Shown here in pieces: positions 52,048 to 64,000 of a stretch of DNA of 64,000 nt. The translations under genes were made by a program, and so were the position numbers. Under the pieces are notes generated by a model. The model was not told where the DNA came from. It saw only the letters and a list, made by a program, of their open reading frames with translations, and made no database searches. Position 1 is the stretch's first letter, and every line of letters starts with the position of its first letter. Source of the DNA: Candidatus Omnitrophota bacterium (lineage in GTDB: Bacteria; Omnitrophota; Gorgyraeia; Zapsychrales; Fredricksoniimonadaceae); NCBI GenBank assembly GCA_903908245.1, contig CAIVRE010000006.1:21951-85950 (forward strand), read 5' to 3'.

Positions 52048-52800
52048 TTACTTTTTCGGAGCCGCAGGCTTGGCCGCGCCAGCCGCAGGCTTCGCACCGG
52101 CCGCCGGTTTTGCCCCTGCCGCCGGTTTCGCCCCTGCCGCCGCTTCCGCCGCAGGATCCTTGGGCTTCTCTTTAATAACTTCAAGTGTCGGTGCCACCAC
52201 TTCCGCATCGGCTGCGGGAGCTTCCTCACGACTGGAATAGACCACCGCCACCACCACCGCGCCCGGATCCATCTTGGTCCGGACACCGGACGGAAGAGCA
52301 AGGTCGCTGACATGGATCGCGTGATGCGTGTCGAGATTAGTCACATCCACTTCAATATGTTGCGGGATATCTTTCGGTAAACAGATCACTTCCAGCTCGC
52401 GCAACCCGTGCTCAAGCGTGGCCCCGATCTTCTTAAGGCCGATCGCCTCGCCTTTGACCACGATCGCCACACGGAAGGCGATCTCTTTATCCATTGAAAT
52501 GCGCTGAAAATCAATGTGATCGACCGCATCACTGACCGGATTAAAATATGTTTCCTTCGCCAGCGCGATACAATCACTGACCTTTTTTTCGCCTGCCAGG
52601 ATCTGCACCTGGAAAAGAATACTTTCCCCGTGATGCTCGCGCATGATACGGTCAAAATCCTTGCGCATCAGCTTGACCGACAAGGGTTTTTCCGCCCCGC
52701 CGTACACCACGCCAGGGATATAACCCGCCTTGCGAAGGGTCTTCACTTCCCCGGAGCCTGCTTCATTCCTGACCTGTAAATCCAATTTGATCTGTTCCAT
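52048..52800 (-). CDS. rplY: 50S ribosomal protein L25 / general stress protein Ctc with a low-complexity C-terminal tail
   Basis: L25 beta-barrel N-terminus plus Ctc domain. C-terminal (AGAKPA)n repeats. Confidence 0.85.
   Translation of the reverse strand: MEQIKLDLQVRNEAGSGEVKTLRKAGYIPGVVYGGAEKPLSVKLMRKDFDRIMREHHGESILFQVQILAGEKKVSDCIALAKETYFNPVSDAVDHIDFQRISMDKEIAFRVAIVVKGEAIGLKKIGATLEHGLRELEVICLPKDIPQHIEVDVTNLDTHHAIHVSDLALPSGVRTKMDPGAVVVAVVYSSREEAPAADAEVVAPTLEVIKEKPKDPAAEAAAGAKPAAGAKPAAGAKPAAGAAKPAAPKK
52060..52150. repeat. Imperfect tandem 18-nt repeats encoding the (AGAKPA)n tail of Ctc
   Basis: GGCTTCGCACCGGCCGCC / GGTTTTGCCCCTGCCGCC / GGTTTCGCCCCTGCCGCC. Confidence 0.7.
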
Positions 52801-55111: not shown

Positions 55112-55298
55112 TAATATAATAGTGGCACACGAGACGATAAAATAGCCATGGAACCGCTAAGGTGCGATAGTATATCTTACGACTTTTTTTTCGTCAAGGA
55201 GAATTAGGCGCCTTGATTTATCCTCAAAAGGGTTGCTAAACCCTGGTTTATCTTTTATACTTAAATTGTCGATTGACCAGAAATCTACAAAGGTCCCT

Positions 55299-56885
55299 AT
55301 GCTTTTAAAAAATAAAGGGCAATCCGTTCTCGAATATATGCTGCTCGCCTCGATCATTATGGTCGGGATCATCATTGGCGGGCCTATATTATTAAAATCC
55401 GTCCAGGGCTATTTCCAGCTCACCGATGAAAGCGTACAGGACGCGACTTCCGAGATCATCCAGCAGGCCCCCGATGCCACGAATATCCCCAAGATCTGCG
55501 GATGTTCGAACGGCACCACCGCCCTGCCCAGCGCACTGAACATCGGCAGCTATCAGGCCGCCGGCTGGTCACAAGGCGAGTGCGGCGTAGGCAACTGCAG
55601 TGCCCTGCAAAGATACTTTTACCGCACCTGCTCTCCGATCAAATGCGCGGCGGAAGAAGCCTGCGTTCCCGACGGCACCTGCTGCTCTGCGCCAGAGCCT
55701 CTGAGCTGCGGGACACGCTTCTCGGCAGGTTCAGCCACTTTGAACTGTACCCAGGCTGGAAAGACCAAAACCACCCTGGATGCAAGATTCGGCGGCTCCT
55801 ATACCAACACCTGTGACCTGTTATCCGCCAACGGCTACGACTGCCTTGTCGGCCAACGATTATATGTCAGACAATGCGCCAATGCCGCCAACCCCAGCAC
55901 GAAAGACACGATCTATGCCTGCAAAGGCCCGGATGATGAGACAAAGCAAAATTGCCTGCCTACCTGCTGGCAGTATCCTTTCCCGGGATCAAAACCCTGC
56001 AACGGGCCCGCTACAGGGGACGCCGAAAAAGATGACTACATGGTCCGGGAGAATGCACTCCAGGACGCCAAGGCCACGGCCATCGCCCTGCGCACAGACC
56101 TGATCCCGGAAGTCATCTACCGTCAATCCGCCACCAACTCGGGCGATAACCCGCCCAACATCAATGAAGAACCGAAGGATATGGCCTATTACGCACGGGT
56201 AAGCGCGCACCTCGTCGAACCACCCCCTCATAACCCCTACAGGATCCTGACCAAGAACGCGGAAACATCCGATATCCTGAAGTTCAACTCTTACCGCGCT
56301 CATTATGTATATTTAAAAGCCAACCAATGCGCCGACGCGCGCTATTGCGAAAGGCGCTGTCCCGGCGGCTATGGGCCGAATCCGGAAGGCCTCAGGGGCA
56401 TGCGCGAGAATGAAAGCTGCGCACAGTTGGCCTGCCTGTACGGCTGGTGGCCGGAAATAGAACCCCTGCCTGTAGCCGCGGGCTCGCGAGACACAGCAAA
56501 AGCATCCCCGGCCAACCAGATATGCGACGCCCTTGATGAACCGAAAATATGCCTCCCCAATACAGATATTTGCGGCTATATCGCCGTATGCTCATCCCCG
56601 TCTGGATACAGTTACCGGACATCCGACACCAGCGGCAGCTTTGATCTGAAGAAACTCGCTGACTCTGCAGCCCCTTGCGATACCGGGTATCGCAAGATCT
56701 CCGACCTGCACAACAAGATAACATACTGTTATAAAGCGACCCCAAGCGCCAGCCCCATAGCGGCACTCCCCGCCGACTTCCATTGTGACGCCGGCAATAT
56801 CTTTGTTGAAAGCTTCGGCTATCCGGCAAATGCGGCCACCAAAGACAACACTCTCTTTTTTACGCTCCTCGGATGCGACAACTGA
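55299..56885 (+). CDS. Cysteine-rich (~40 Cys) 528-aa secreted protein with an Flp/type-IV-pilin-like class III signal peptide
   Basis: MLLKNKG|QSVLEYMLLASIIMVGIIIGG: a short basic leader ending in Gly, Glu at +5, Tyr at +6 and a hydrophobic helix, matching the prepilin peptidase motif G/xxxxEY. The remainder is a unique Cys-rich extracellular region. Confidence 0.7.
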   Translation: MLLKNKGQSVLEYMLLASIIMVGIIIGGPILLKSVQGYFQLTDESVQDATSEIIQQAPDATNIPKICGCSNGTTALPSALNIGSYQAAGWSQGECGVGNCSALQRYFYRTCSPIKCAAEEACVPDGTCCSAPEPLSCGTRFSAGSATLNCTQAGKTKTTLDARFGGSYTNTCDLLSANGYDCLVGQRLYVRQCANAANPSTKDTIYACKGPDDETKQNCLPTCWQYPFPGSKPCNGPATGDAEKDDYMVRENALQDAKATAIALRTDLIPEVIYRQSATNSGDNPPNINEEPKDMAYYARVSAHLVEPPPHNPYRILTKNAETSDILKFNSYRAHYVYLKANQCADARYCERRCPGGYGPNPEGLRGMRENESCAQLACLYGWWPEIEPLPVAAGSRDTAKASPANQICDALDEPKICLPNTDICGYIAVCSSPSGYSYRTSDTSGSFDLKKLADSAAPCDTGYRKISDLHNKITYCYKATPSASPIAALPADFHCDAGNIFVESFGYPANAATKDNTLFFTLLGCDN

Positions 56886-56910
56886 CCTGAAATTGATCGT
56901 GCGCTTGGCA

Positions 56911-58131
56911 ATGGCAAAGAAACTCCGTATCCTTCTTCATTACACCCACAAACAAACTCTCGGCCACACCACCCGCACGATCTCGCTTGCGACATCTATT
57001 GTTGATCACCACGCAACAAAAACAAGCCTTCTGCTCCTGCAGGGTGGAGCGCTTCAACCCCTTATAGAACACCCCAAAGGGTACAGGCTCCTGAACATCC
57101 CCTTCCCGTTCGATACCCGGGACAGTTTTCGCTCCCGCTCAATACCGCAGCGAACAACCGAACGCGCCGCGTTCATCCTTAAAGCCGCGCAAGAATTCAC
57201 CCCCGGCGTCTTTATAACAGAATTCTTCCCTTTCGGCCGTTCAGCCTATATCCCGGAACTTCTTCCGGCGTTGCGTTATTTGCGGAAGACCGGCTGCAGG
57301 ATCATTGCCAGTATCGGCTATCCTCTCATCATCGACCTGATCCGCCTTCAGGACAGGCAATTCGCGGCGGTATATAAAGCCCTGCTGTCCTTTTACGATG
57401 CCTTCCTGATCCACACACCCGAACAACTCGAAACGCCCTATTTTCTAAGGTCCATCGCCTCAAAAGAGATCGCGGACCTTTACACCGCGACCCTTGGATC
57501 GATCAGAAAGAAAATGATCCATACCGGCTATATTTTCCCCCGGCGAATACTGACACCGACGAAGAACGACGGCCTTGAAAAACTCCCCCCCGCCCCGAAT
57601 ACAGTGATTGTCAGCCGCGGCGGCGGCGCTGTATATCCCAAACTCATTGTCAACGCGATCCAAGCTCAAAAACTCCTCGGGAAGAACTTCCGGATGATCA
57701 TCGCCTGCGGCCCATCCACATCCGAAAAAGAAATGTCCCTCTTTAAACAGGTCCTGAAAGAAAACAAAGGCAGCCCGATCCTTTTGACCAGCCACCTCTC
57801 CGACCTGGATGATCATCTGCGGACCTGCCAGGTCTCGATAAGCCTCTGCGGCTATAATACATCGGTACAACTGATGCGCCATGGCACTCCGTCGGTGATC
57901 GTGCCCTACAGTAACGGGCTCTCCCGGATGCCCACCAATGACCAGATCGCCCGTGCCGCCCTTCTTCAAGAGAAATTCGCAAGCACCGTCCTGTCTTACG
58001 ACACGCTGACCCCCCGGTCGCTCGCCCAGGCCATTCGTGCGCGGGCCGACCGGCCGCGGCCGGCCCCGGCGCCATTGTCCTGGTTCCAGGGAGCGCGAAC
58101 CTCTGCCAAGATCATCGTCGAGGAGGCCTAA
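56911..58131 (+). CDS. GT-B fold glycosyltransferase (GT28/MurG-like)
   Basis: N-terminus MAKKLRILLHYTHKQTLGHTTRT (degenerate GGTGGH loop) and a MurG-like C-terminal nucleotide-sugar-binding half. Listed ORF starts further upstream, overlapping the preceding gene. Confidence 0.6.
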   Translation: MAKKLRILLHYTHKQTLGHTTRTISLATSIVDHHATKTSLLLLQGGALQPLIEHPKGYRLLNIPFPFDTRDSFRSRSIPQRTTERAAFILKAAQEFTPGVFITEFFPFGRSAYIPELLPALRYLRKTGCRIIASIGYPLIIDLIRLQDRQFAAVYKALLSFYDAFLIHTPEQLETPYFLRSIASKEIADLYTATLGSIRKKMIHTGYIFPRRILTPTKNDGLEKLPPAPNTVIVSRGGGAVYPKLIVNAIQAQKLLGKNFRMIIACGPSTSEKEMSLFKQVLKENKGSPILLTSHLSDLDDHLRTCQVSISLCGYNTSVQLMRHGTPSVIVPYSNGLSRMPTNDQIARAALLQEKFASTVLSYDTLTPRSLAQAIRARADRPRPAPAPLSWFQGARTSAKIIVEEA

Positions 58132-58132
58132 A

Positions 58133-59176
58133 ATGGAGCATCAAGCCTTCACCGGAATGGACGCGCGCCGTTTTGACACAAGGGACTTCAATATCAACCG
58201 GCCCGAAGTTGAACGCTTATGCGCCATATTCAATACCGGCAGGCTGCTGGAGTGGATCCCCGAAAAAGGCCTGCGCCTGTCCCACTCGAACTTCACCGTT
58301 TACGCGAAGTGTTCCCGTGGACAATATATTTTTAAATTCCAGCCGGCCACGAATGAATGGTTCCGGCGCATTGAAAAGAACGTTCAAACAGAATGGCTCC
58401 TCAACCGCCTGCTGATATCCAAGACTATCGCGGTCCCGCCCATGTTCCGCGCGAACGACCGCCGGCCTTATGCCTTATCCGGTCAATATTGCACGACCTG
58501 CTATACCTATCTCGACGGTTACCCTGCCTACCAGAACAAGCTCGTCCCCAGGCAGGTCGCCAGGATCAATCGCGCCCTTTTCCTCCTGGATCAGGCCCTG
58601 GACACAGCGCCGGCTATCGTTAAATTGCTTAAAACAGAACCCCTCATAAAGAAATTGCGCCCGCTGACCGAAGCCGCTCCTGCATGCCCCCCCGCACAGG
58701 AAGCCCTCAAAGCTTTTAAAAGAACATATTCCGAAACCCCCCGGCTCTTTGTGGCACGGCCCGTCCATGCCAATCTCTCCCTGGCCAACATTTTCTTCTG
58801 CAATGGCCAGGCCTATATCCTGGACATCGGCCATATCCAGACAGACCAGGAATTATCCGGATTGGCGACATTGATCACCTCCTGCATTTTCCTGAGAAAA
58901 CCATCTTCGGTGATCCGCGGCCTTGTGCAAGGCTATTTCAAAGAACACCGGCTGGAGAAAGAAAAACTGGGCGTCTTGAATATCCTCGTTCAGCTTGATC
59001 TGGCCAAAGAATATATCAAGTTGAACACGCGGGGAGAAGAACGGGCCCGGCAGCTGCCGACCAACCGCCTGCAGAAAGAATATTCTTACCACCTTGGAAA
59101 ACGGATTGAAATGCTCAGGAACCTGCTTGAAAAGAAGAACGGCGGCCAAGAACGTCCGATAACAGGATTATTTTAA
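58133..59176 (+). CDS. Aminoglycoside-phosphotransferase-fold kinase-like protein with catalytic Asp replaced by Asn
   Basis: Perfect AGGAGG Shine-Dalgarno 7 nt upstream. VHANLSLANIFF aligns to HGDLHPGNLL (H-x-N instead of H-x-D). ILDIGH aligns to the IDxE/DFG-like metal site. Confidence 0.55.
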   Translation: MEHQAFTGMDARRFDTRDFNINRPEVERLCAIFNTGRLLEWIPEKGLRLSHSNFTVYAKCSRGQYIFKFQPATNEWFRRIEKNVQTEWLLNRLLISKTIAVPPMFRANDRRPYALSGQYCTTCYTYLDGYPAYQNKLVPRQVARINRALFLLDQALDTAPAIVKLLKTEPLIKKLRPLTEAAPACPPAQEALKAFKRTYSETPRLFVARPVHANLSLANIFFCNGQAYILDIGHIQTDQELSGLATLITSCIFLRKPSSVIRGLVQGYFKEHRLEKEKLGVLNILVQLDLAKEYIKLNTRGEERARQLPTNRLQKEYSYHLGKRIEMLRNLLEKKNGGQERPITGLF

Positions 59177-59849
59177 TTCCCCCTTTGTCACGCCAGCGGG
59201 AAATCCCCTTCAGAAAGAACTGCAATTCCCCCTCCAGCCCTTGCGCCGCGAACTCTTCATGATGAAGAAGGATCCCGGTCAATTGGCCCGGAACAACCGC
59301 CCGCACCAGATGCCGCAGCATATATCGGTGATCCATCTTCTTCCCCTGACCGTTGCGGGCGCCAAAAGATATTCCGGCGGGGATATCAAGGACTTTATCT
59401 CCGGGAGAGAACGCCTTCTTGCCGGCAGAAAAACCGGCGAACCTGCACTTTTTCACAAGGCCGAGCGTTGTCGCGTCATATCCATGGAACGGAGGAACAA
59501 AGACCGAAGTGAACATTTTTCCGAAAACCGACTTCATCACGGACATCCCCCTCTTAAGATCACGCCCCTGGCAAGCGGCGCAACGCGAAGGCCCGAACTC
59601 ATACTTCCGCTCTCCCGGGCGGGAATGATCCGCATGGCTCCAGCCATGCTGAACAATATCCAATAATCCAGGCGTCCGCGCTTTCTGGCGCTTTAACATA
59701 CCCGCCAGTCGGCTGTCCAGGCCATCAGGGATCACCGCGTACACCACGGGAAGATCCTTCTCCAGGAATAAACGAAAGAATTCCTTGAAATAACCGCCTG
59801 CAGCCTTTACATCATCATCCCGGATAAAAAGATACGCCGGCCTCATCAC
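59115..59849 (-). CDS. Divergent NodB-like polysaccharide/carbohydrate deacetylase
   Basis: FIRDDDV ... VQHGWSHADH motif pair as seen in divergent polysaccharide-deacetylase families. 244 aa. Last gene of the minus-strand operon. Its 3' end overlaps the kinase-like gene by 62 nt. Confidence 0.5.
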   Translation of the reverse strand: MMRPAYLFIRDDDVKAAGGYFKEFFRLFLEKDLPVVYAVIPDGLDSRLAGMLKRQKARTPGLLDIVQHGWSHADHSRPGERKYEFGPSRCAACQGRDLKRGMSVMKSVFGKMFTSVFVPPFHGYDATTLGLVKKCRFAGFSAGKKAFSPGDKVLDIPAGISFGARNGQGKKMDHRYMLRHLVRAVVPGQLTGILLHHEEFAAQGLEGELQFFLKGISRWRDKGGIKIILLSDVLGRRSSFQAGS

Positions 59850-59850
59850 G

Positions 59851-60594
59851 TCAACCTCCCCGCTTTCGGCAACAGTTCAACGCCAGCGCTCTGACACTCG
59901 CCGGGACCTGCAACTCGGGTTTGCCCACGCAGGGAAATAAAACGGATAGATCCGGCGACAATGAACGCAGCAACCGCTTGCCTTTCTTAAGCGGTGCCGG
60001 GATACGGACAGCAGCATCAAGGACCGCCTTCTCAAGGAAAGGGAATACGATTTCCCGGCCGGAATCTGCCGCGATGATCCCGTGATGACGTACCATCTCC
60101 CGCGCCTGGCTGCGCCGCCGGGCGGTTGACGGTCCCCGGGCCATCGCCTCTTCCCCCAGCCACTGATCACTGCCCATCCCTGCCCAGAAACGTTTGAACG
60201 AAGACGGAAGTTTCAGGAGCGCGGCATGCAAAAGAGGGATGTCATAATCGCGGCCCCTTCCTTTCAAAAGCTCCTCAACGCGTATCGCAGAAAGAATATA
60301 TTCTTTCAGGGAAACCCGGACCACCTGATGCCTGGCCTTAAGCAGACGGGCCGCCCGTTGAGCCTCAAGGACCGTACGCGGATTATACCTGTCGAAAGCC
60401 ACCGTGACCGCCGCAACGCCGGGGAAAACCTGCCTGGCCTGTTCATATAAGAAAATCGAATCAAAACCGCCGCTGAACATTACCGCCGACGGAATGCCTC
60501 CCGACCGGATGGCCACGGCCATCGCGGCACACAACTCGACACGGAATTGCTCCGTCCGAAGATTCTTTTCAGGATTAGCCGTTTTTCTTTTCAT
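59851..60594 (-). CDS. PP-loop ATP-pyrophosphatase, asparagine-synthetase-B-like C-terminal domain only (PseA/WbuX-type amidotransferase candidate)
   Basis: PP-loop MFSGGFDS. 247 aa with no glutaminase domain. Confidence 0.6.
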   Translation of the reverse strand: MKRKTANPEKNLRTEQFRVELCAAMAVAIRSGGIPSAVMFSGGFDSIFLYEQARQVFPGVAAVTVAFDRYNPRTVLEAQRAARLLKARHQVVRVSLKEYILSAIRVEELLKGRGRDYDIPLLHAALLKLPSSFKRFWAGMGSDQWLGEEAMARGPSTARRRSQAREMVRHHGIIAADSGREIVFPFLEKAVLDAAVRIPAPLKKGKRLLRSLSPDLSVLFPCVGKPELQVPASVRALALNCCRKRGG

Positions 60595-61577
60595 GCCAGA
60601 TAACGCAAATTAAATGGTTTCAAAAAACCGTGATAGGCAAAACACCCGGGGCAATCCCCCTTCTTGGCGGATCGGAACATTACGCCCCTTTGAAGATCCA
60701 GCCCGTCCGGAAGGCCTCCTTTAAGGTCAACACAGCCCACCGGCGGCATATACAGGCATGGATGAACATCGCCGCCGGAAGTGATGAACAAACTATTCTT
60801 CGGCGTAGCGCAAGCCGAGATCCCCTTCCGGCCAGAGTCAAGCAAATGCAGGACAGCCTCGGCCATCGCCCGGTCGATCCCCTCTGCCCCGCCATGGAGA
60901 ATATCCAATACCTGCGCGCGTACGCTGGAACGCATCAATGCCGTCAACGAAGACAACGCCTGAACTCCCGGCCCGCCGCTGCGATGATAATACGCCGCAA
61001 CCCCATACTCCATGATCTTGGGAGAGAATCGCGCGCCGAAACGACGGGCAAGCCGATACACCTCCCCAAGGGCATGATAATTAACACGGTTAATGGTGAA
61101 CTTCAACTCCAGCTTAACACTGTCCCGGCACTCGCCCGCCAGGAACTCCAGCGTCTTCATTGTCTTGCGGTACGCCCCCTTGCCCCTCAGGGCATCATGC
61201 GCCTGCTCATCCCCGTCCACACTCACCCCTACCTCGATACCGTTGAACATTCTTCCTTGAGACTTGAACAGTCTTTGAATACGCGCGGTACAAGCCCCAT
61301 TCGTGTAAACACCATATCCGGTCACAAGGCCGCGCGATCTCATCAGCGCCAGAAAACGCAGGACCCCCCCGATCCCGGGATGCAGGAAAGGCTCGCCGCC
61401 CGTGACCGATATGAACCGGACCTGATAATTCCGCAACAGGCTTTCGGTCAACCGGATAAAACGGGACGCTGATATCTCGCGCCTGGAGCGTTCCTTCCAT
61501 ATCGCGCAAGCCCGGCAGCGCAGTTGACAGCGGTTGGTCACCTCAACGGTCACATCCCTTAATACAGCCTTGGTCAT
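60591..61577 (-). CDS. Radical SAM enzyme with C-terminal SPASM/twitch-like cysteine cluster
   Basis: CQLRCRAC (CX3CX2C) near the N-terminus. C-terminal cysteines CATPKNSLFITSGGDVHPC...CVDLKGG...CPGC. 4-nt overlaps on both sides. Confidence 0.75.
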   Translation of the reverse strand: MTKAVLRDVTVEVTNRCQLRCRACAIWKERSRREISASRFIRLTESLLRNYQVRFISVTGGEPFLHPGIGGVLRFLALMRSRGLVTGYGVYTNGACTARIQRLFKSQGRMFNGIEVGVSVDGDEQAHDALRGKGAYRKTMKTLEFLAGECRDSVKLELKFTINRVNYHALGEVYRLARRFGARFSPKIMEYGVAAYYHRSGGPGVQALSSLTALMRSSVRAQVLDILHGGAEGIDRAMAEAVLHLLDSGRKGISACATPKNSLFITSGGDVHPCLYMPPVGCVDLKGGLPDGLDLQRGVMFRSAKKGDCPGCFAYHGFLKPFNLRYLA

Positions 61578-62725
61578 TGCCTCACCAACCCTTTCAAGCC
61601 TCTGCCGGACGGGCCAGATTGAACACGGGCCAATACCGCATGCACAGACCTGTTAAGCTCCGCATGCCCGCAGTACCGGCACTCCCTCCAGCGGTCTTTC
61701 CTGATATCAATACACCGCATCGCGTCCTGCCGGATCTTCTGAAATTTGACTGACCCGAACCAGATATCCTTGAAAGATCCTTTATAAATATTCCCCGCGA
61801 TACAAACCCCGATATTGTCGCAGGGAGCGACGACCCTGCCCCGCTCGTCGATCAGGGCATTGAACCACCCGGTATAACAATGCACCCGCTCCTGCGGCAC
61901 CGCGTGATAATAAAAAAGCCTGTCGTTATTCCATTTTGTCGGCGCCATTGCCGCCCGGTCCTTCACAAACCCCTTTCGGGAAATGATATCGTGGATCTGC
62001 GACAAATTATTGATCGCCCGATGCCGGCCCTTTCCGGCCCTGGCAATGATCCCCAGCAAGGGTTTCATTGACCCCGGCGAAAACACCAGGGATTTCATCT
62101 CGACCGTAGCCTCAAAAAGGCGAAAAGCCACCCGGTCGACCTGAAAACGATCCGTCAGATCAAGATACGCCTCGATCTCCCTGTAATTCACTTCATTGAT
62201 AATGAACGTAAGCACCAGCGACGGCTTGCCGTACTTTGTACGCATGGCCGATAACAGGCGCAAATTGTCAATGACATCCCCGAACCCGTCTTTGCCATGA
62301 ATACGGCGGTAGGAAGCGGCCGTAGTGGCGGAAAGGTTGACATTAAGCCGGTCGGCCAACCGGAGGTAGTCGAGATGCTCCCGGCCATAATCCAGATGCG
62401 TATACGCCGCCAGCGACATCCCCAGGCGATGGACCAGGCGAAAAGCCTCGGCAACGCGTGGATACAGGGCCACCTCCCCTCCCTCCAGATTGATCTCCTC
62501 AACACCCATCCCGGCACAATCATGGATCAACCTTTTTAAAACATCAAAATCAATATCCTTGCGCTTTTCACGCCAGGAGACCATCGGAGAAAAATACCAG
62601 CAGAACCTGCACCGGCGGTCGCAGGCATTGGTCAAATGGACATTGACCGAACGCGGCCCGATCAGCGGCTTTCCCGAAAGGATCCCCTTGAACCTCAAAC
62701 GCTCGGATGCGCGGTCCCAACTCAC
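61574..62725 (-). CDS. Radical SAM enzyme with C-terminal SPASM/twitch-like cysteine cluster (paralogous partner)
   Basis: CDRRCRFC (CX3CX2C). C-terminal HCYTGW...APCDNIGVC...CRYCGH. Confidence 0.75.
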   Translation of the reverse strand: MSWDRASERLRFKGILSGKPLIGPRSVNVHLTNACDRRCRFCWYFSPMVSWREKRKDIDFDVLKRLIHDCAGMGVEEINLEGGEVALYPRVAEAFRLVHRLGMSLAAYTHLDYGREHLDYLRLADRLNVNLSATTAASYRRIHGKDGFGDVIDNLRLLSAMRTKYGKPSLVLTFIINEVNYREIEAYLDLTDRFQVDRVAFRLFEATVEMKSLVFSPGSMKPLLGIIARAGKGRHRAINNLSQIHDIISRKGFVKDRAAMAPTKWNNDRLFYYHAVPQERVHCYTGWFNALIDERGRVVAPCDNIGVCIAGNIYKGSFKDIWFGSVKFQKIRQDAMRCIDIRKDRWRECRYCGHAELNRSVHAVLARVQSGPSGRGLKGLVRQ

Positions 62726-63834
62726 TTCGACCTCCGTCCCAGAAAAGCTTTACAGACAGCCACGACCTCCCGCGCCTTATCCAGGCCCATGAAAGAATAC
62801 AGGGGAAGATGCAAGCCGCAGGCGAAATACTCTTCGCTCACAGGGTACTTCCTGCGGCATGACTTTTGATACGCTCCCATCGCATGCAACGGCGTATACG
62901 GGCGCTGCGCAAGGATACCGTGCAATGAAAGAAATGCGAACAGCTCATCCCTGACAGAGAAATACACCAGGAAATTCTGCGGCACGATCCCGGCCTTTTC
63001 CCTGTCCTTAAAAATACGCACCCCTTCCATGGATCCCAGCGCCCCTGCATAGAAATCGCTGACCTGTTTGCGCGAATCAATGATCTTTTTTAAATGCGCG
63101 AATTTAACCCGTAAAGCGACCAGGTCCATCAAAGGCAAAGGCGCGAAACGCTGCCCCAGCCGCAAAAGCTCCCCGTCATCTTTCCAATCCTCCATCCAGC
63201 CGCGGATCCGTTCATATTTTTTGTCATTAAAAACAACCATCCCGCCCCCGCCCCCGCAGGAGGAAAGCGGCTTGTAATAAGAGAACGAAAAAGCCCCCAT
63301 ATCCCCGTAACTCCCCAGCATCCGGCCCTTCCATCGTGAACTTTCAGCCTGGCAAACATCCTCCAGAAGCACGATCCCCCGGTCCCGGCAAAGGCGCACC
63401 AGACGGTCCAGGTCACACGGCCGGCCGAACATATGCGCCGCGACCACCGCTTTCGTACGGCGCGTGATCATTCGCTCGACCTCAACAGGATCCATGGTCA
63501 GGTCTTGCGCACGGGCATCCACAGGGACCGGCTTCGCCCCGCAATAGGAAACAGCCAAAGGGACTGCCTGATAGGTCAAGTCCGGCACAATGACCTCGTC
63601 CCCCTTCTTGACGCCATTGGCCAAAAGCATCATCTTCAATGCGTCGCTTCCGGAATTAACCGCCACCGCGTGTTTAACCCCGATATACGCCGCGAACCGG
63701 TCCTCAAAATCACGGATTAAAGGCTTGATATCATTAAGCCCGTCAAGGCCCTTCACACACCGTTCCAATTCGGACGCATACTCACATGCAAGCGCGCGCT
63801 CGACAAGTGCACATTCATAGCGGACTTTTATCAT
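62722..63834 (-). CDS. DegT/DnrJ/EryC1/StrS-family PLP-dependent sugar aminotransferase
   Basis: 370 aa with DegT-family conserved segments (AVNSGSDAL, GDEVIVP, FSFSYYKP with PLP-Lys). Confidence 0.8.
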   Translation of the reverse strand: MIKVRYECALVERALACEYASELERCVKGLDGLNDIKPLIRDFEDRFAAYIGVKHAVAVNSGSDALKMMLLANGVKKGDEVIVPDLTYQAVPLAVSYCGAKPVPVDARAQDLTMDPVEVERMITRRTKAVVAAHMFGRPCDLDRLVRLCRDRGIVLLEDVCQAESSRWKGRMLGSYGDMGAFSFSYYKPLSSCGGGGGMVVFNDKKYERIRGWMEDWKDDGELLRLGQRFAPLPLMDLVALRVKFAHLKKIIDSRKQVSDFYAGALGSMEGVRIFKDREKAGIVPQNFLVYFSVRDELFAFLSLHGILAQRPYTPLHAMGAYQKSCRRKYPVSEEYFACGLHLPLYSFMGLDKAREVVAVCKAFLGRRSK

Positions 63835-64000
63835 GCTATTCTCCCCATAAACCTTCGGTCAACCGCCTCGATGCTTTCGCATAATCCTGTATAAGCCCCC
63901 ACTCGCGCGGAGTACCGGCCGCCTCCGGAAGAACGGACAGCCAGGCCCGCATTAAAATTGCTCACGGCCCGGTAACTCGGCATTCCGTCCCTCTCGCCCA
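63831..64000 (-). CDS. C-terminal end of an upstream operon gene (hypothetical), ATGA-overlapped with the DegT gene
   Basis: Open frame to the window edge ending ...AVDRRFMGRIA* with its TGA overlapping the downstream ATG (ATGA), typical translational coupling. Confidence 0.5.
   Translation of the reverse strand, partial: GERDGMPSYRAVSNFNAGLAVRSSGGGRYSARVGAYTGLCESIEAVDRRFMGRIA

What the first reader, a model, noticed from the sequence alone, without database searches (positions are those of the whole stretch)
55299..64000. Candidate undescribed surface-protein modification system: a pilin-like Cys-rich protein flanked by glycosyltransferase, kinase-like, DegT, two radical-SAM/SPASM, PP-loop amidotransferase and deacetylase genes
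After ~55 kb of textbook housekeeping genes the window ends in a ~9 kb block of a different character. The plus strand carries a three-gene unit with short intergenic gaps (25 nt and 1 nt): a 528-aa cysteine-rich secreted protein with a class III signal peptide, a GT-B glycosyltransferase and an APH-fold pseudo-kinase. This unit converges on a five-plus-gene minus-strand operon with 4-nt overlaps. That operon runs, in order, through a partial upstream gene, a DegT aminotransferase, a radical-SAM/SPASM enzyme and a second radical-SAM/SPASM enzyme. It ends with an AsnB-like PP-loop amidotransferase and a NodB-like deacetylase. By established knowledge, DegT aminotransferases, PseA/WbuX-type amidotransferases and deacetylases belong to unusual aminosugar pathways that glycosylate pilins and flagellins. 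Radical-SAM/SPASM enzymes install thioether or C-C crosslinks on Cys-rich substrates, or act as sugar dehydrogenases such as BtrN. Taken together this looks like a dedicated glycosylation and/or crosslink maturation system for the pilin-like protein. I cannot match the ensemble to a named system.
Basis: partly seen in the sequence, partly recalled or inferred. Interest (0 to 1): 0.85.

Follow-up and report, generated by a model that had tools for sequence, protein, structure and literature searches.

The report
Cysteine-rich pilin with radical-SAM accessory island
The end of this window, from an uncultured Omnitrophota bacterium, holds an unusual cysteine-rich type IV pilin gene beside a large, uncharacterised cluster of radical-SAM and sugar-modifying enzymes; the two recur together across the phylum, so the cluster probably decorates or matures the pilus protein.

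Summary
The window cuts the system short. On the identical 229-kb contig the minus-strand "operon" has 11 genes. It faces three more radical-SAM genes and a prepilin-peptidase-like gene.

The 528-aa protein belongs to an unannotated, Omnitrophota-only family of at least 80 sequence clusters. Members have a prepilin-type leader (G|QSxxEY), a predicted 40-residue N-terminal helix, and a globular part with about 9% Cys (14 invariant Cys). In relatives this gene sits in the pilin slot of type IV pilus loci (pilMNOPQ | pilin | pilC pilB).

The enzyme set is conserved across the phylum. Its core is GT28 glycosyltransferase, DUF2334 deacetylase, DegT, AsnB-like, PaaK-like, an APH-like protein lacking the catalytic Asp, and several radical-SAM enzymes. 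It lies beside the pilin gene in about 45% of informative loci, in at least five gene orders, often with an A24 peptidase. Fusions (GT28–rSAM, GT28–DUF2334, APH–GT28) tie the enzymes into one pathway.

The four closest orthologues lack this island, so linkage is frequent but not obligatory. The most likely reading is a pilin-modification island of new composition. The chemistry (glycan versus Cys crosslink) is unresolved. I found no published description.

The parts
55233..55261 (+). Sigma-70-like promoter match (TTGCTA-17-TATACT) in the 187-nt divergent glmU/pilin intergenic region, about 38 nt upstream of the pilin start codon
   Evidence: Consensus scan only; sequence read. This is weak evidence.
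55299..56885 (+). Cys-rich type IV pilin-like protein, 528 aa. The leader is MLLKNKG|QSVLEY. A predicted alpha-1 helix spans residues 10-51. A conserved Cys-rich domain ends near residue 235 and holds 14 invariant Cys. The C-terminal half is variable.
   Evidence: ORF. No Pfam or NCBIfam hit. Family alignments. AF2 model. Family of at least 80 clusters, all Omnitrophota where a source names the organism. Pilin slot in T4P loci of relatives.
56911..58131 (+). GT-B glycosyltransferase with a Glyco_tran_28_C (MurG-like) C-terminal domain, 406 aa, carrying an invariant N-terminal HYTHKxTLGHTTR motif. It is a core member of the island.
   Evidence: Pfam 1e-10. Orthologues at 45-57% identity in 20 of 23 cluster loci. 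Fusions to rSAM, DUF2334 and APH domains elsewhere. No solved relative by sequence.
58133..59176 (+). APH/CotS-fold kinase-like protein, 347 aa. It keeps the beta3 Lys, the alphaC Glu and the Mg-binding Asp, but has HxN in place of the catalytic HxD. It is the gene most often found directly downstream of the pilin in other genomes.
   Evidence: Pfam APH 3e-4, below cutoff, and CotS. Alignment. Best PDB match is YtaA/CotI at E 0.12. Adjacency shown.
59115..59846 (-). DUF2334 / polysaccharide-deacetylase-like protein, 243 aa, last gene of the 11-gene operon. Its 3' end overlaps the 3' end of the APH-like gene by 62 nt.
   Evidence: Pfam DUF2334 1e-6 and Polysacc_deac_1 4e-4. Present in 18 of 23 cluster loci. 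Fused to GT28 in P0254, P0279 and P0298. No solved relative by sequence.
59851..60594 (-). AsnB-like PP-loop ATP-pyrophosphatase domain protein, 247 aa, with no glutaminase domain
   Evidence: Pfam Asn_synthase 3e-7 and QueC; NCBIfam LarE/AsnB/QueC, all far below cutoff. Present in 15 of 23 cluster loci, some with a longer N-terminus.
60591..61577 (-). Radical-SAM enzyme ('rSAM328'), 328 aa. It has CxxxCxxC at residues 17-24 and a twitch-like C-terminus with 5 Cys. It is the most widely conserved island gene.
   Evidence: Present in 22 of 23 cluster loci.
61574..62725 (-). Radical-SAM enzyme ('SPASM383'), 383 aa. It has CxxxCxxC at residues 35-42 and five invariant C-terminal Cys (283, 302, 308, 349, 352). 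It has three paralogues in the same super-locus.
   Evidence: At least 72 homologous clusters at 42-66% identity; those that a source names are Omnitrophota/Omnitrophica. AF2 model pLDDT 83. Its fold is equally near SuiB, DesII, SkfB, viperin, BlsE, PqqE, anSME and MoaA.
62722..63834 (-). DegT/DnrJ/EryC1-family PLP sugar (or cyclitol) aminotransferase, 370 aa
   Evidence: Pfam 5e-74. Nearest solved structures are DesV, QdtB, Gln:scyllo-inositol transaminase and perosamine synthase. Orthologues at 57-66% identity in 19 of 23 loci.
63831..64000 (-). 3' end of a PapB-like radical-SAM gene. The full gene is 340 aa with CxxxCxxC but no SPASM cysteines. The operon continues beyond the window with rSAM/SPASM, a second PapB-like rSAM, a PaaK-like ligase, an ApbA-like reductase and a WbuX-like amidotransferase.
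   Evidence: Contig extension L009/L010; domain calls; Cys anatomy; DNA identity to the window.

Best explanation
The 528-aa protein is a type IV pilin of a lineage-specific, cysteine-rich family. The genes around it form a 'pilin accessory island'.

**Proposed mechanism**
1. A prepilin-peptidase-like A24 protease encoded in the same super-locus cleaves the prepilin after Gly7.
2. The island enzymes build an unusual amino-sugar-type modifier in the cytoplasm. A GT-B glycosyltransferase transfers an N-acetyl-hexosamine-like sugar. The DUF2334 enzyme de-N-acetylates it.
3. Twitch-type radical-SAM enzymes, together with the DegT aminotransferase, oxidise and aminate it without oxygen. This is the logic of BtrN plus BtrS.
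4. PaaK-like, AsnB-like and WbuX-like ATP-dependent enzymes add acyl or amidino groups.
5. The APH-like protein, which lacks the catalytic Asp, acts as a non-canonical or regulatory partner.
6. The product ends up on the pilin or pilus. In some genomes this goes through a polyprenyl-phosphate carrier and a GT-C transferase.

**Shown versus inferred**
- Shown: gene content, family membership at the domain level, conservation across the phylum, recurrent adjacency to the pilin and A24 genes, and the gene fusions.
- Inferred: that the pilin is the target, the order of the steps, and the nature of the product.
For: **The protein is a pilin**
- The leader has Gly at -1 and Glu at +5, and the motif is conserved in all members.
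- The AF2 model has a helix at 10-51 followed by a beta-rich domain.
- Members sit between pilMNOPQ and pilC/pilB in about 25 loci. Pfam verifies the machinery genes.
- The pilin-like leader pattern used in the scan matched only nine ORFs in about 443 kb of Omnitrophota DNA, and all nine are family members.

**The pilin and the island are linked**
- 6 of 13 informative cluster loci have the pilin at the cluster edge.
- 9 of about 20 informative pilin loci have the APH-like gene or the cluster adjacent.
- The pairing occurs in at least five different gene orders: the window, L011, the L025 type, L024 and L073, with L076 as a further variant.
- The pilin-to-APH spacing runs from a 4-nt overlap to a 27-nt gap.
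- An A24-like peptidase with both Asp motifs lies in the window's super-locus. Homologues sit beside or inside the island in L015, L019, L073 and L076.

**The enzymes form one pathway**
- Fusions exist between GT28 and rSAM/SPASM (L073), GT28 and DUF2334, and APH and GT28.

**The chemistry is glycan-type**
- The DegT's nearest solved relatives are sugar or cyclitol transaminases.
- The first operon gene is WbuX-like.
- Variable island genes include GT2 plus PMT_2 (a GT-C), GT9, sulfotransferases and arylsulfotransferases.
- The pilin's globular part is about 20% Ser plus Thr.
Against: - The four closest orthologues (42-49% identity) sit at the same glmU-adjacent position but next to unrelated radical-SAM clusters.
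- About half of both kinds of locus show no adjacency.
- No oligosaccharyltransferase, flippase or GT-C gene is visible in the window genome's locus. No 4,6-dehydratase or nucleotidyltransferase is present to start a classical sugar-nucleotide route.
- The pilin's globular domain matches no solved pilin fold.
- No radical-SAM enzyme reaches any curated family cutoff, and the SPASM383 fold does not distinguish peptide from sugar substrates.
- The loci are phylogenetically non-independent, so the adjacency counts overstate the number of independent events.
- There are no expression or biochemical data.
Confidence: 0.5

Rival explanations
1. The radical-SAM enzymes act directly on the Cys-rich pilin, as RiPP or QhpD-type maturases do. 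They would install thioether or C-C crosslinks, or other Cys-derived modifications, before export. The sugar enzymes would play a secondary role.
For: - The pilin family has a median of 30 Cys, about 9% of the globular part, and 14 are invariant.
- The super-locus carries eight radical-SAM genes.
- The best, though sub-threshold, NCBIfam hits of two of them are the PapB ranthipeptide maturase and other peptide maturases.
- In sister genomes and in L076 the pilin again neighbours other radical-SAM-rich clusters together with an A24 peptidase.
- The SPASM383 model resembles SuiB, SkfB, CteB and anSME as well as it resembles anything else.
Against: - The PapB-like pair has no SPASM or auxiliary-cluster cysteines. 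The others have only five C-terminal Cys, a twitch-like arrangement, not the seven-Cys SPASM motif of known thioether synthases.
- No RRE or PqqD-like domain and no short precursor gene was detected.
- From established knowledge, a pilin's globular domain is translocated unfolded to the periplasm, and cytoplasmic crosslinking would hinder that.
- Cys-richness is the same in pilins with and without an adjacent island.
- DegT, GT, deacetylase and ligases, and their fusions to rSAM domains, point to small-molecule or sugar chemistry.
Confidence: 0.15
2. The enzyme cluster is a general cell-envelope glycan or glycolipid pathway, for example an LPS core, O-antigen or capsule route, or an Arn-like lipid A modification. 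It would merely tend to lie near the pilus locus in this phylum, and the pilin would not be its target.
For: - DegT, WbuX-like, GT9 and sulfotransferases are typical of surface-polysaccharide loci. GT2 plus PMT_2 plus a deacetylase mirrors ArnC/ArnT/ArnD.
- The cluster is found without an adjacent pilin in about half of the loci.
- The same MAG can hold the pilin and the cluster on different contigs (L016 versus L075).
- The GT28/DUF2334 module also occurs outside Omnitrophota, for example in Nanoarchaeota.
Against: - Adjacency persists through at least five rearranged architectures and tight pilin-APH or pilin-GT28 spacing.
- An A24 prepilin-peptidase-like gene is embedded in or beside the cluster in five loci, two of which have no adjacent pilin.
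- No Wzx, Wzy, Wzz, ABC-exporter or initiating-transferase genes were seen in the window genome's locus.
Confidence: 0.2
3. The cluster is a secondary-metabolite pathway of the aminoglycoside or aminocyclitol type, and the APH-like protein is its self-resistance kinase.
For: - The DegT resembles Gln:scyllo-inositol and 2-DOI transaminases.
- The C-terminus of SPASM383 aligns weakly with the BtrN twitch domain.
- GT, deacetylase and APH-fold genes parallel BtrM, BtrD and APH. A B12-type rSAM has a sub-threshold AprD4 hit, and an ApbA-like reductase is present.
Against: - No cyclitol synthase is encoded in the locus.
- The APH-like protein lacks the catalytic Asp in 8 of 9 sequences.
- The cluster is a vertically conserved, phylum-wide feature at native GC content, not a sporadic BGC.
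- This reading does not explain the pilin and A24 linkage.
Confidence: 0.07

Closest known systems
Pilin accessory and glycosylation genes next to pilA in Pseudomonas aeruginosa (tfpO/pilO; tfpW-tfpX), and Neisseria pilin glycosylation (own knowledge)
   Same: Modification genes sit immediately downstream of the pilin gene inside or beside the type IV pilus locus. Gene content varies between strains. A GT-C transferase (PMT_2, comparable to TfpW) is present in some Omnitrophota versions.
   Different: The window genome has no PglL/TfpO-type O-oligosaccharyltransferase. The island is far larger and is dominated by radical-SAM enzymes. The pilin is 300-700 aa with about 30 Cys and a G|QSxxEY leader instead of G|FTLIE.
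Flagellin glycosylation islands of Campylobacter and Helicobacter (pseudaminic or legionaminic acid: PseC/LegC DegT-type transaminases, PseA WbuX-type amidotransferase) (own knowledge; NCBIfam hits)
   Same: A DegT-family aminotransferase (best NCBIfam hits are LegC and PseC, below cutoff) and a WbuX/PseA-like amidotransferase are encoded next to the filament subunit gene.
   Different: There is no PseB/PseF/PseG/PseI or Maf homologue. All scores are far below the equivalog cutoffs. The radical-SAM, GT28, DUF2334 and APH-like genes have no counterpart there.
2-deoxystreptamine aminoglycoside logic (butirosin BtrS, BtrN, BtrM, BtrD) and the 'GlcNAc transfer then de-N-acetylation then ligation' logic of mycothiol and bacillithiol (own knowledge)
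   Same: The cluster combines an aminotransferase, a twitch-type radical-SAM enzyme, a GT-B glycosyltransferase, a deacetylase and ATP-dependent ligases. The GT28-DUF2334 fusions fit a transfer-then-deacetylate pair.
   Different: The GT and deacetylase belong to different protein families (GT28 and DUF2334, not GT4 and LmbE). There is no cyclitol synthase. The kinase-like protein lacks the catalytic Asp. The cluster is linked to a pilin.
Radical-SAM/SPASM maturases of Cys-rich substrates (sactipeptides, ranthipeptides/PapB, QhpD on the QHNDH gamma subunit, anSME) (own knowledge; NCBIfam)
   Same: Several radical-SAM genes lie next to a Cys-rich secreted protein, and their best sub-threshold hits include PapB, SkfB, CcpM and HxsB/C.
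   Different: There is no full SPASM motif, no RRE and no short precursor. The substrate would be a 300-700-aa Sec-exported pilin. No family cutoff is reached.

Membership tests
Type IV pilin / class III signal-peptide protein | Short basic leader ending in Gly, followed by a hydrophobic segment with Glu at +5 | tested here: met
   The sequence is MLLKNKG|QSVLEYMLLASIIMVGIIIGG. G7, Q8, S9, E12 and Y13 are invariant in nine family members.
Type IV pilin / class III signal-peptide protein | Long N-terminal alpha-1 helix packed on a globular beta-rich domain | tested here: met
   The AF2 model has a helix at 10-51 and a beta-rich region at 65-235 with pLDDT 70-90. This is a prediction only.
Type IV pilin / class III signal-peptide protein | Globular domain recognisably similar to solved pilins, or a match to pilin sequence models (N_methyl, Flp_Fap) | tested here: not met
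Type IV pilin / class III signal-peptide protein | Encoded with type IV pilus assembly genes and a prepilin peptidase | tested here: met
   In relatives, pilM-N-O-P-Q runs divergently and pilC/pilB lie downstream. In the window genome only an A24-like peptidase, about 15 kb away, is visible, and the window holds no pil genes.
Type IV pilin / class III signal-peptide protein | Cleaved by a prepilin peptidase and polymerised into a filament | not testable with these tools
   This needs proteomics or microscopy.
Pilin/flagellin glycosylation island | Sugar-modifying enzymes encoded next to the filament subunit gene | tested here: met
   GT28, DegT, DUF2334, and the WbuX- and AsnB-like genes are adjacent here and recurrently in other genomes.
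Pilin/flagellin glycosylation island | A transferase able to put the glycan on the protein (PglL/TfpO O-OTase, TfpW-type GT-C, or Maf) | tested here: inconclusive
   None is recognisable in the window genome's locus. A PMT_2 GT-C is present in L025 and L028, and a GT2 in L025 and L076. GT28 itself could act on the protein, but this is untested.
Pilin/flagellin glycosylation island | Glycan demonstrated on the subunit | not testable with these tools
   This needs mass spectrometry.
Radical-SAM/SPASM peptide maturase (sacti-/ranthipeptide, QhpD-like) | CxxxCxxC radical-SAM cluster motif | tested here: met
   All eight rSAM proteins of the super-locus have it.
Radical-SAM/SPASM peptide maturase (sacti-/ranthipeptide, QhpD-like) | Full seven-Cys SPASM domain binding two auxiliary clusters | tested here: not met
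   The SPASM383, rSAM328 and SPASM_a/d1/d2 proteins have a five- to six-Cys pattern, C-x17-18-C-x5-7-C...C-x2-C. The PapB-like pair has none.
Radical-SAM/SPASM peptide maturase (sacti-/ranthipeptide, QhpD-like) | Score above a curated family cutoff, an RRE domain, or an adjacent short precursor | tested here: not met
   The best NCBIfam scores are 45-92 bits against cutoffs of 265-650. Pfam finds no PqqD/RRE domain. No conserved small ORF was noticed.
Aminoglycoside phosphotransferase / CotS kinase family | Brenner motif HxDxxxxN with the catalytic Asp | tested here: not met
   The motif is HxNxxxxN in 8 of 9 aligned members. K69, E88, N220 and D232 are conserved. The Pfam APH score of 21.1 is below the 23.2 cutoff.
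2-DOS aminoglycoside-type gene cluster | Cyclitol synthase (2-DOI synthase) together with a BtrS-type transaminase and a BtrN-type dehydrogenase | tested here: not met
   None of the 14 genes of the super-locus has a DHQS-like domain. DegT is present, but similarity to the BtrN twitch domain is only weak, at E 5e-4.

The most novel reading that the evidence does not exclude
Omnitrophota build a type IV pilus from a pilin whose roughly 30 cysteines are substrates of the co-located radical-SAM enzymes. The fibre subunit would then be a RiPP-like, covalently crosslinked or cofactor-bearing protein: thioether or C-C bridged, S-glycosylated, or metal- or cluster-binding. A dedicated A24 peptidase would mature it. 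This would be the first radical-SAM-matured pilus. Because these are ultra-small, host-dependent bacteria, it could be a key determinant of attachment or of electron transfer.
Probability: 0.15. Interest if true: 0.9.

Novelty: new variant of a known kind. Interest (0 to 1): 0.62.

Why it matters
Omnitrophota are an uncultured, globally distributed phylum of ultra-small bacteria. Their type IV and Tad pili are thought to mediate attachment to hosts or prey (PMC10066038).

This work finds that the pilin slot of their type IV pilus loci is filled by an unannotated, very cysteine-rich protein family. Gene callers often give these proteins the wrong start.

A 10-14-gene enzyme island rich in radical-SAM genes travels with that pilin and with a prepilin peptidase. 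Together these give a concrete, testable handle on how these organisms build and decorate their main surface appendage.

The work also assigns a biological context to several orphan families: the GT28-like HYTHK glycosyltransferases, DUF2334, an Asp-less APH-like family, and four radical-SAM subfamilies. It suggests that radical-SAM enzymes can replace oxygen- or NAD-dependent steps in surface-glycan or protein maturation in anaerobes.

Tried and rejected
1. **Foreign island.** Rejected. GC content and GC skew match the rest of the window.

3. **Orthology between this island and the radical-SAM clusters next to the four close pilin orthologues.** Rejected. Only generic 24-31% rSAM similarity was found. 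Those clusters are a His-Xaa-Ser-type system and others.

4. **Chance adjacency because pilin-like genes are common.** Rejected. A regex scan of about 443 kb found only nine pilin-like leaders, all from this family.

5. **PapB-like gene 2 as a strain-specific truncation.** Rejected. L009 and L010 are identical in DNA, and only the gene calls differ.

6. **Sequence searches of PDB with GT28, APH-like, DUF2334 and AsnB-like queries.** There were no significant hits.

7. **Fold of SPASM383 to decide between a peptide and a sugar substrate.** Uninformative. SuiB, DesII, SkfB, viperin, BlsE, PqqE, anSME and MoaA are all equally near.

8. **N-glycosylation sequon enrichment in the pilin family.** The excess is modest, 395 observed against 336 expected, and I do not rely on it. 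Cys-count parity gave no disulfide signal. The window protein has no CxxCH haem motif.

9. **First metagenome scan with the nine-member alignment.** It failed because no stretch was conserved enough. I repeated it with a closer subfamily, so the reverse test is biased toward that subfamily.

10. **Literature.** No paper in the library describes the cluster or the pilin family.

11. **Promoter and terminator scans.** They gave no more matches than shuffled sequence.

Full report
**1. The observation**

- On the plus strand lie a 528-aa ORF (55299-56885, 31 Cys), a 406-aa ORF (56911-58131, after a 25-nt gap) and a 347-aa ORF (58133-59176, after a 1-nt gap).
- On the minus strand, joined by 4-nt overlaps, lie genes of 243, 247, 328, 383 and 370 aa, then a partial gene that runs off the window end.

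Pfam and NCBIfam confirm the domain calls.
- These are Glyco_tran_28_C, APH (weak, below cutoff; also CotS), DUF2334/Polysacc_deac_1, and an Asn_synthase PP-loop domain with no glutaminase.
- There are also two Radical_SAM proteins with SPASM-type C-termini, and DegT (5e-74).
- The 528-aa protein hits nothing.

GC content and skew match the rest of the window.

**2. The window truncates the system**

The 528-aa protein is encoded identically on a 229-kb ENA contig from an Omnitrophota MAG. The DNA is identical to the window over 55299-64000.

Extending from DegT shows an 11-gene operon:
1. WbuX-like amidotransferase
2. ApbA-like reductase
3. PaaK-like AMP-ligase
4. PapB-like rSAM
5. rSAM/SPASM
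6. PapB-like rSAM
7. DegT
8. rSAM/SPASM ('SPASM383')
9. rSAM ('rSAM328')
10. AsnB-like
11. DUF2334

A second unit runs divergently from this operon. It holds a B12-type rSAM, two more rSAM/SPASM paralogues, and a 299-aa protein matching Peptidase_A24 (26.1 bits against a cutoff of 26.5). That protein carries both prepilin-peptidase Asp motifs, FFDITRQKILN and RGGDAKL.

The super-locus therefore holds eight radical-SAM genes. None reaches any curated NCBIfam cutoff. Four are paralogues of one another.

Their cysteine anatomy shows two things. The 'SPASM' proteins have only five conserved C-terminal Cys, a twitch-like pattern with probably one auxiliary cluster. The two PapB-like proteins have no auxiliary-cluster cysteines at all.

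**3. What the Cys-rich protein is**

Its N-terminus, MLLKNKG|QSVLEY followed by a hydrophobic stretch, has the prepilin signature of Gly at -1 and Glu at +5. AlphaFold, run with a 70-sequence alignment, predicts a helix at residues 10-51 and then a beta-rich domain at 65-235 with pLDDT 70-90. The C-terminal half is low-confidence.

A single-sequence search found only four homologues at 42-46% identity. A profile of the conserved N-terminal 235 residues found 77 more clusters. All are 'hypothetical' and have no Pfam domain. Every one that a source names is from Omnitrophica/Omnitrophota.

Context is the decisive evidence. In about 25 loci the gene lies divergently next to pilM-pilN-pilO-pilP-pilQ. 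Where the contig continues, it lies upstream of pilC and two MshEN-domain PilB ATPases. Pfam verifies these machinery genes.

A regex scan of about 443 kb of Omnitrophota DNA found no other pilin-like leader. The family therefore occupies the pilin slot of the Omnitrophota type IV pilus locus. Whether it is the major pilin or a large minor or tip pilin cannot be told.

Many database entries for the family start at an internal Met (MGPYVLRS...) and so miss the leader.

**4. Whether the neighbours belong with it**

*Forward test.* An alignment of SPASM383 homologues was built. There are at least 72 clusters at 42-66% identity, and those that a source names are Omnitrophota/Omnitrophica. The alignment retrieved 21 loci from GTDB species representatives, labelled Omnitrophota/Omnitrophica or 'uncultured Planctomycetales'.

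Annotating these loci against the window genome's proteins reveals a conserved cluster. Its core, counted over 23 loci, is:
- rSAM328 in 22
- SPASM383 in 21
- GT28 in 20
- DegT in 19
- DUF2334 in 18
- PapB-like 2 in 17
- AsnB-like in 15
- APH-like in 14
- PapB-like 1 in 11
- PaaK-like in 9

In 6 of 13 loci with an informative flank (the window, L011, L022, L024, L025, L028), a member of the Cys-rich pilin family sits at the cluster edge.

*Reverse test.* A scan of JGI metagenome contigs with a pilin-subfamily alignment gave 40 loci. Among about 20 with an informative downstream flank, nine have the APH-like gene immediately downstream of the pilin, or the cluster adjacent. The spacing runs from a 4-nt overlap to a 27-nt gap. 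The rest have the pilin inside a plain pilus locus.

Further look-ups added three variants.
- L073 reads pilin, then convergently DUF2334, four SPASM rSAMs, a GT28::rSAM/SPASM fusion protein of 709 aa, DegT, Peptidase_A24 and a FemAB-like gene.
- L076 reads pilMNOPQ | pilin, rSAM | GT28, B12-rSAM, rSAM, A24 | B12-rSAM, SPASM, GT2.
- L077 reads pilMNOPQ | pilin, APH-like, arylsulfotransferase.

Homologues of the window genome's A24-like peptidase also lie beside the cluster in L015 and L019, which have no adjacent pilin.

The pilin-island pairing is thus kept through at least five distinct gene orders, and an A24 peptidase repeatedly accompanies it. For two single-copy features in genomes of a few megabases, this is far beyond chance. 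The loci are not phylogenetically independent, however.

**5. Counter-evidence on linkage**

The four closest orthologues of the window's pilin occupy the same position next to glmU. Their neighbours have no orthology to this island.
- In L004 the neighbour is a His-Xaa-Ser-type radical-SAM cluster.
- In L006 and L007 the neighbours are a PP-loop ATPase, another A24 peptidase and other rSAMs.
- In the remaining case it is a hybrid-cluster protein.

About half of cluster loci and half of pilin loci show no adjacency. In one MAG (GCA_964483785.1), the cluster (L016) and the pilin (L075) are on different contigs. This shows genome-level co-occurrence without adjacency.

In my view they were too strict. 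The association is statistical, as it is for other pilin accessory genes.

**6. What the enzymes suggest**

- The DegT's nearest solved relatives are sugar and cyclitol transaminases: DesV, QdtB, Gln:scyllo-inositol transaminase and perosamine synthase.
- GT28 has no solved relative by sequence. Its family is large, with 703 representative clusters at E<=1e-10.
- That family includes GT28+DUF2334 fusions, GT28+DUF2334+GT4 (in a Nanoarchaeota MAG) and APH+GT28 fusions, plus the GT28::rSAM fusion in L073.
- These fusions argue that the GT, deacetylase, kinase-like protein and rSAM work in one pathway. The GT-deacetylase pair fits the common 'transfer an N-acetyl-hexosamine, then de-N-acetylate' logic (established knowledge: MshA/MshB, BshA/BshB, BtrM/BtrD, PIG-A/PIG-L).
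- Variable genes in other versions of the island are GT2 plus PMT_2 (a GT-C), GT9, PAPS-type sulfotransferase and exported arylsulfotransferases. These again point to glycan chemistry. The GT-C offers a route to periplasmic transfer onto a protein, by analogy with TfpW and PMT.
- The APH-like protein keeps the ATP-binding Lys and Glu and the Mg-binding Asp. It has Asn in place of the catalytic Asp in 8 of 9 sequences, so it is a pseudokinase or a non-canonical enzyme.
- The SPASM383 model (pLDDT 83) is equally close to peptide-modifying enzymes (SuiB, SkfB, CteB, anSME, PqqE) and to sugar- or nucleotide-modifying ones (DesII, BlsE, viperin, MoaA). The rSAM substrates remain open.

**7. Best explanation and rivals**

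- *Pilin accessory island (0.5).* The island makes an unusual amino-sugar-type modifier with anaerobic radical chemistry and delivers it to the Cys-rich pilin, which an island-linked A24 peptidase processes. The gene content, conservation, adjacency and fusions are shown. The target and the chemistry are inferred.
- *Direct radical-SAM crosslinking or modification of the pilin's cysteines (0.15).* This is attractive because of the Cys content and because rSAM clusters recur next to the pilin even in genomes lacking this island. It is weakened by the missing SPASM cysteines and RRE, and by pilin export topology.
- *A general envelope-glycan or Arn-like pathway that is only syntenic with the pilus locus (0.2).*
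- *An aminoglycoside-like metabolite cluster (0.07).*

**8. Comparison with known systems, and novelty**

The nearest known kinds are pilin and flagellin glycosylation islands. This one shares their position next to the subunit gene and their DegT- and WbuX-type enzymes.

It differs in several ways:
- The pilin is 300-700 aa with about 30 Cys and an atypical leader.
- Radical-SAM enzymes dominate the island.
- It carries the GT28/DUF2334/APH-like module.
- An A24 peptidase is embedded in it.
- The window genome shows no recognisable oligosaccharyltransferase.

Full-text searches found no description of the cluster or of the pilin family. The two phylum-wide Omnitrophota genome papers were included in those searches.

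I classify it as a new variant of a known kind. It has a minority chance of being something more radical, namely a radical-SAM-matured pilus.

Interest is moderate to high (0.62). The system is conserved across a whole uncultured phylum, and it concerns the appendage thought to underlie that phylum's host-dependent lifestyle. Function rests entirely on comparative genomics.

Noticed in passing
L073:15534-17663 (minus strand); proteins P0254, P0279, P0298, P0285: There are Rosetta-stone fusions in the GT28 family. One is a 709-aa GT28::radical-SAM/SPASM protein in an Omnitrophota island. Others are GT28+DUF2334 (650-662 aa), GT28+DUF2334+GT4 (998 aa, in a Nanoarchaeota MAG) and APH+GT28 (519 aa). 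The GT28/DUF2334 module is therefore wider than Omnitrophota.
   Followed up: partly
L024:11136-12275, P0088, P0133, P0136, P0141, P0154 and others: Public gene calls for many members of the pilin family start at an internal Met (MGPYVLRS...). They omit the conserved leader and the first half of the alpha-1 helix, although the ORF and the conserved MNKRGQSIIEY... sequence extend upstream. This probably hides the family from pilin predictors.
   Followed up: partly
window 59115-59176: The convergent APH-like and DUF2334 genes overlap by 62 nt at their 3' ends. No terminator-like site lies between the two transcription units.
   Followed up: no
L042:5777-6460, L059:4137-4814, L072:11455-12126, L049:11380-12075, L048:2619-3383: An IS200-like Y1 (REP-associated-type) transposase gene lies immediately downstream of the pilin gene in several type IV pilus loci that lack the enzyme island. 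The site seems to be a recurrent insertion or exchange point.
   Followed up: no
L040:11982-13068; L036, L053/L054, L058, L075:11301-11657: A 117-aa PterinBD-DUF4346 protein is a recurrent gene just after the pilin or APH-like gene, sometimes followed by a Diphthami_syn_2 PP-loop ATPase. A Diphthami_syn_2 gene also sits next to the pilin orthologue in L006 and L007.
   Followed up: partly
L004:11580-15692: In the genome of pilin orthologue P0002, the convergent neighbour is a His-Xaa-Ser-type radical-SAM system (HxsD Pfam hit, rSAMs of 245, 372 and 484 aa, small ORFs of 75-103 aa). The same block occurs further along in L006 and L007.
   Followed up: partly
L065:9962-13951; L047:1486-4235: Some loci have tandem or extra paralogues that are extremely Cys-rich. 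L065 has proteins of 575 aa with 42 Cys and 721 aa with 67 Cys. L047 has one of 701 aa with 64 Cys, plus a second 206-aa pilin-like protein with 22 Cys on the opposite strand.
   Followed up: no
L016:15981-17699: In a cluster locus without an adjacent pilin, the gene next to the two APH-like paralogues encodes a 572-aa secreted protein with a Peptidase_S74 (endosialidase-chaperone) domain. That domain is typical of self-cleaving fibre or tailspike proteins.
   Followed up: no
window 52048-52800 (minus strand): The ribosomal protein L25/Ctc homologue carries a C-terminal low-complexity tail of AAGAKP repeats (…AAGAKPAAGAKPAAGAKPAAGAAKPAAPKK).
   Followed up: no
window 1-64000: GC skew is uniformly negative (-0.05 to -0.26) across the whole window, and nearly all long ORFs are on the minus strand. 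The three-gene pilin unit is one of the few plus-strand units.
   Followed up: no
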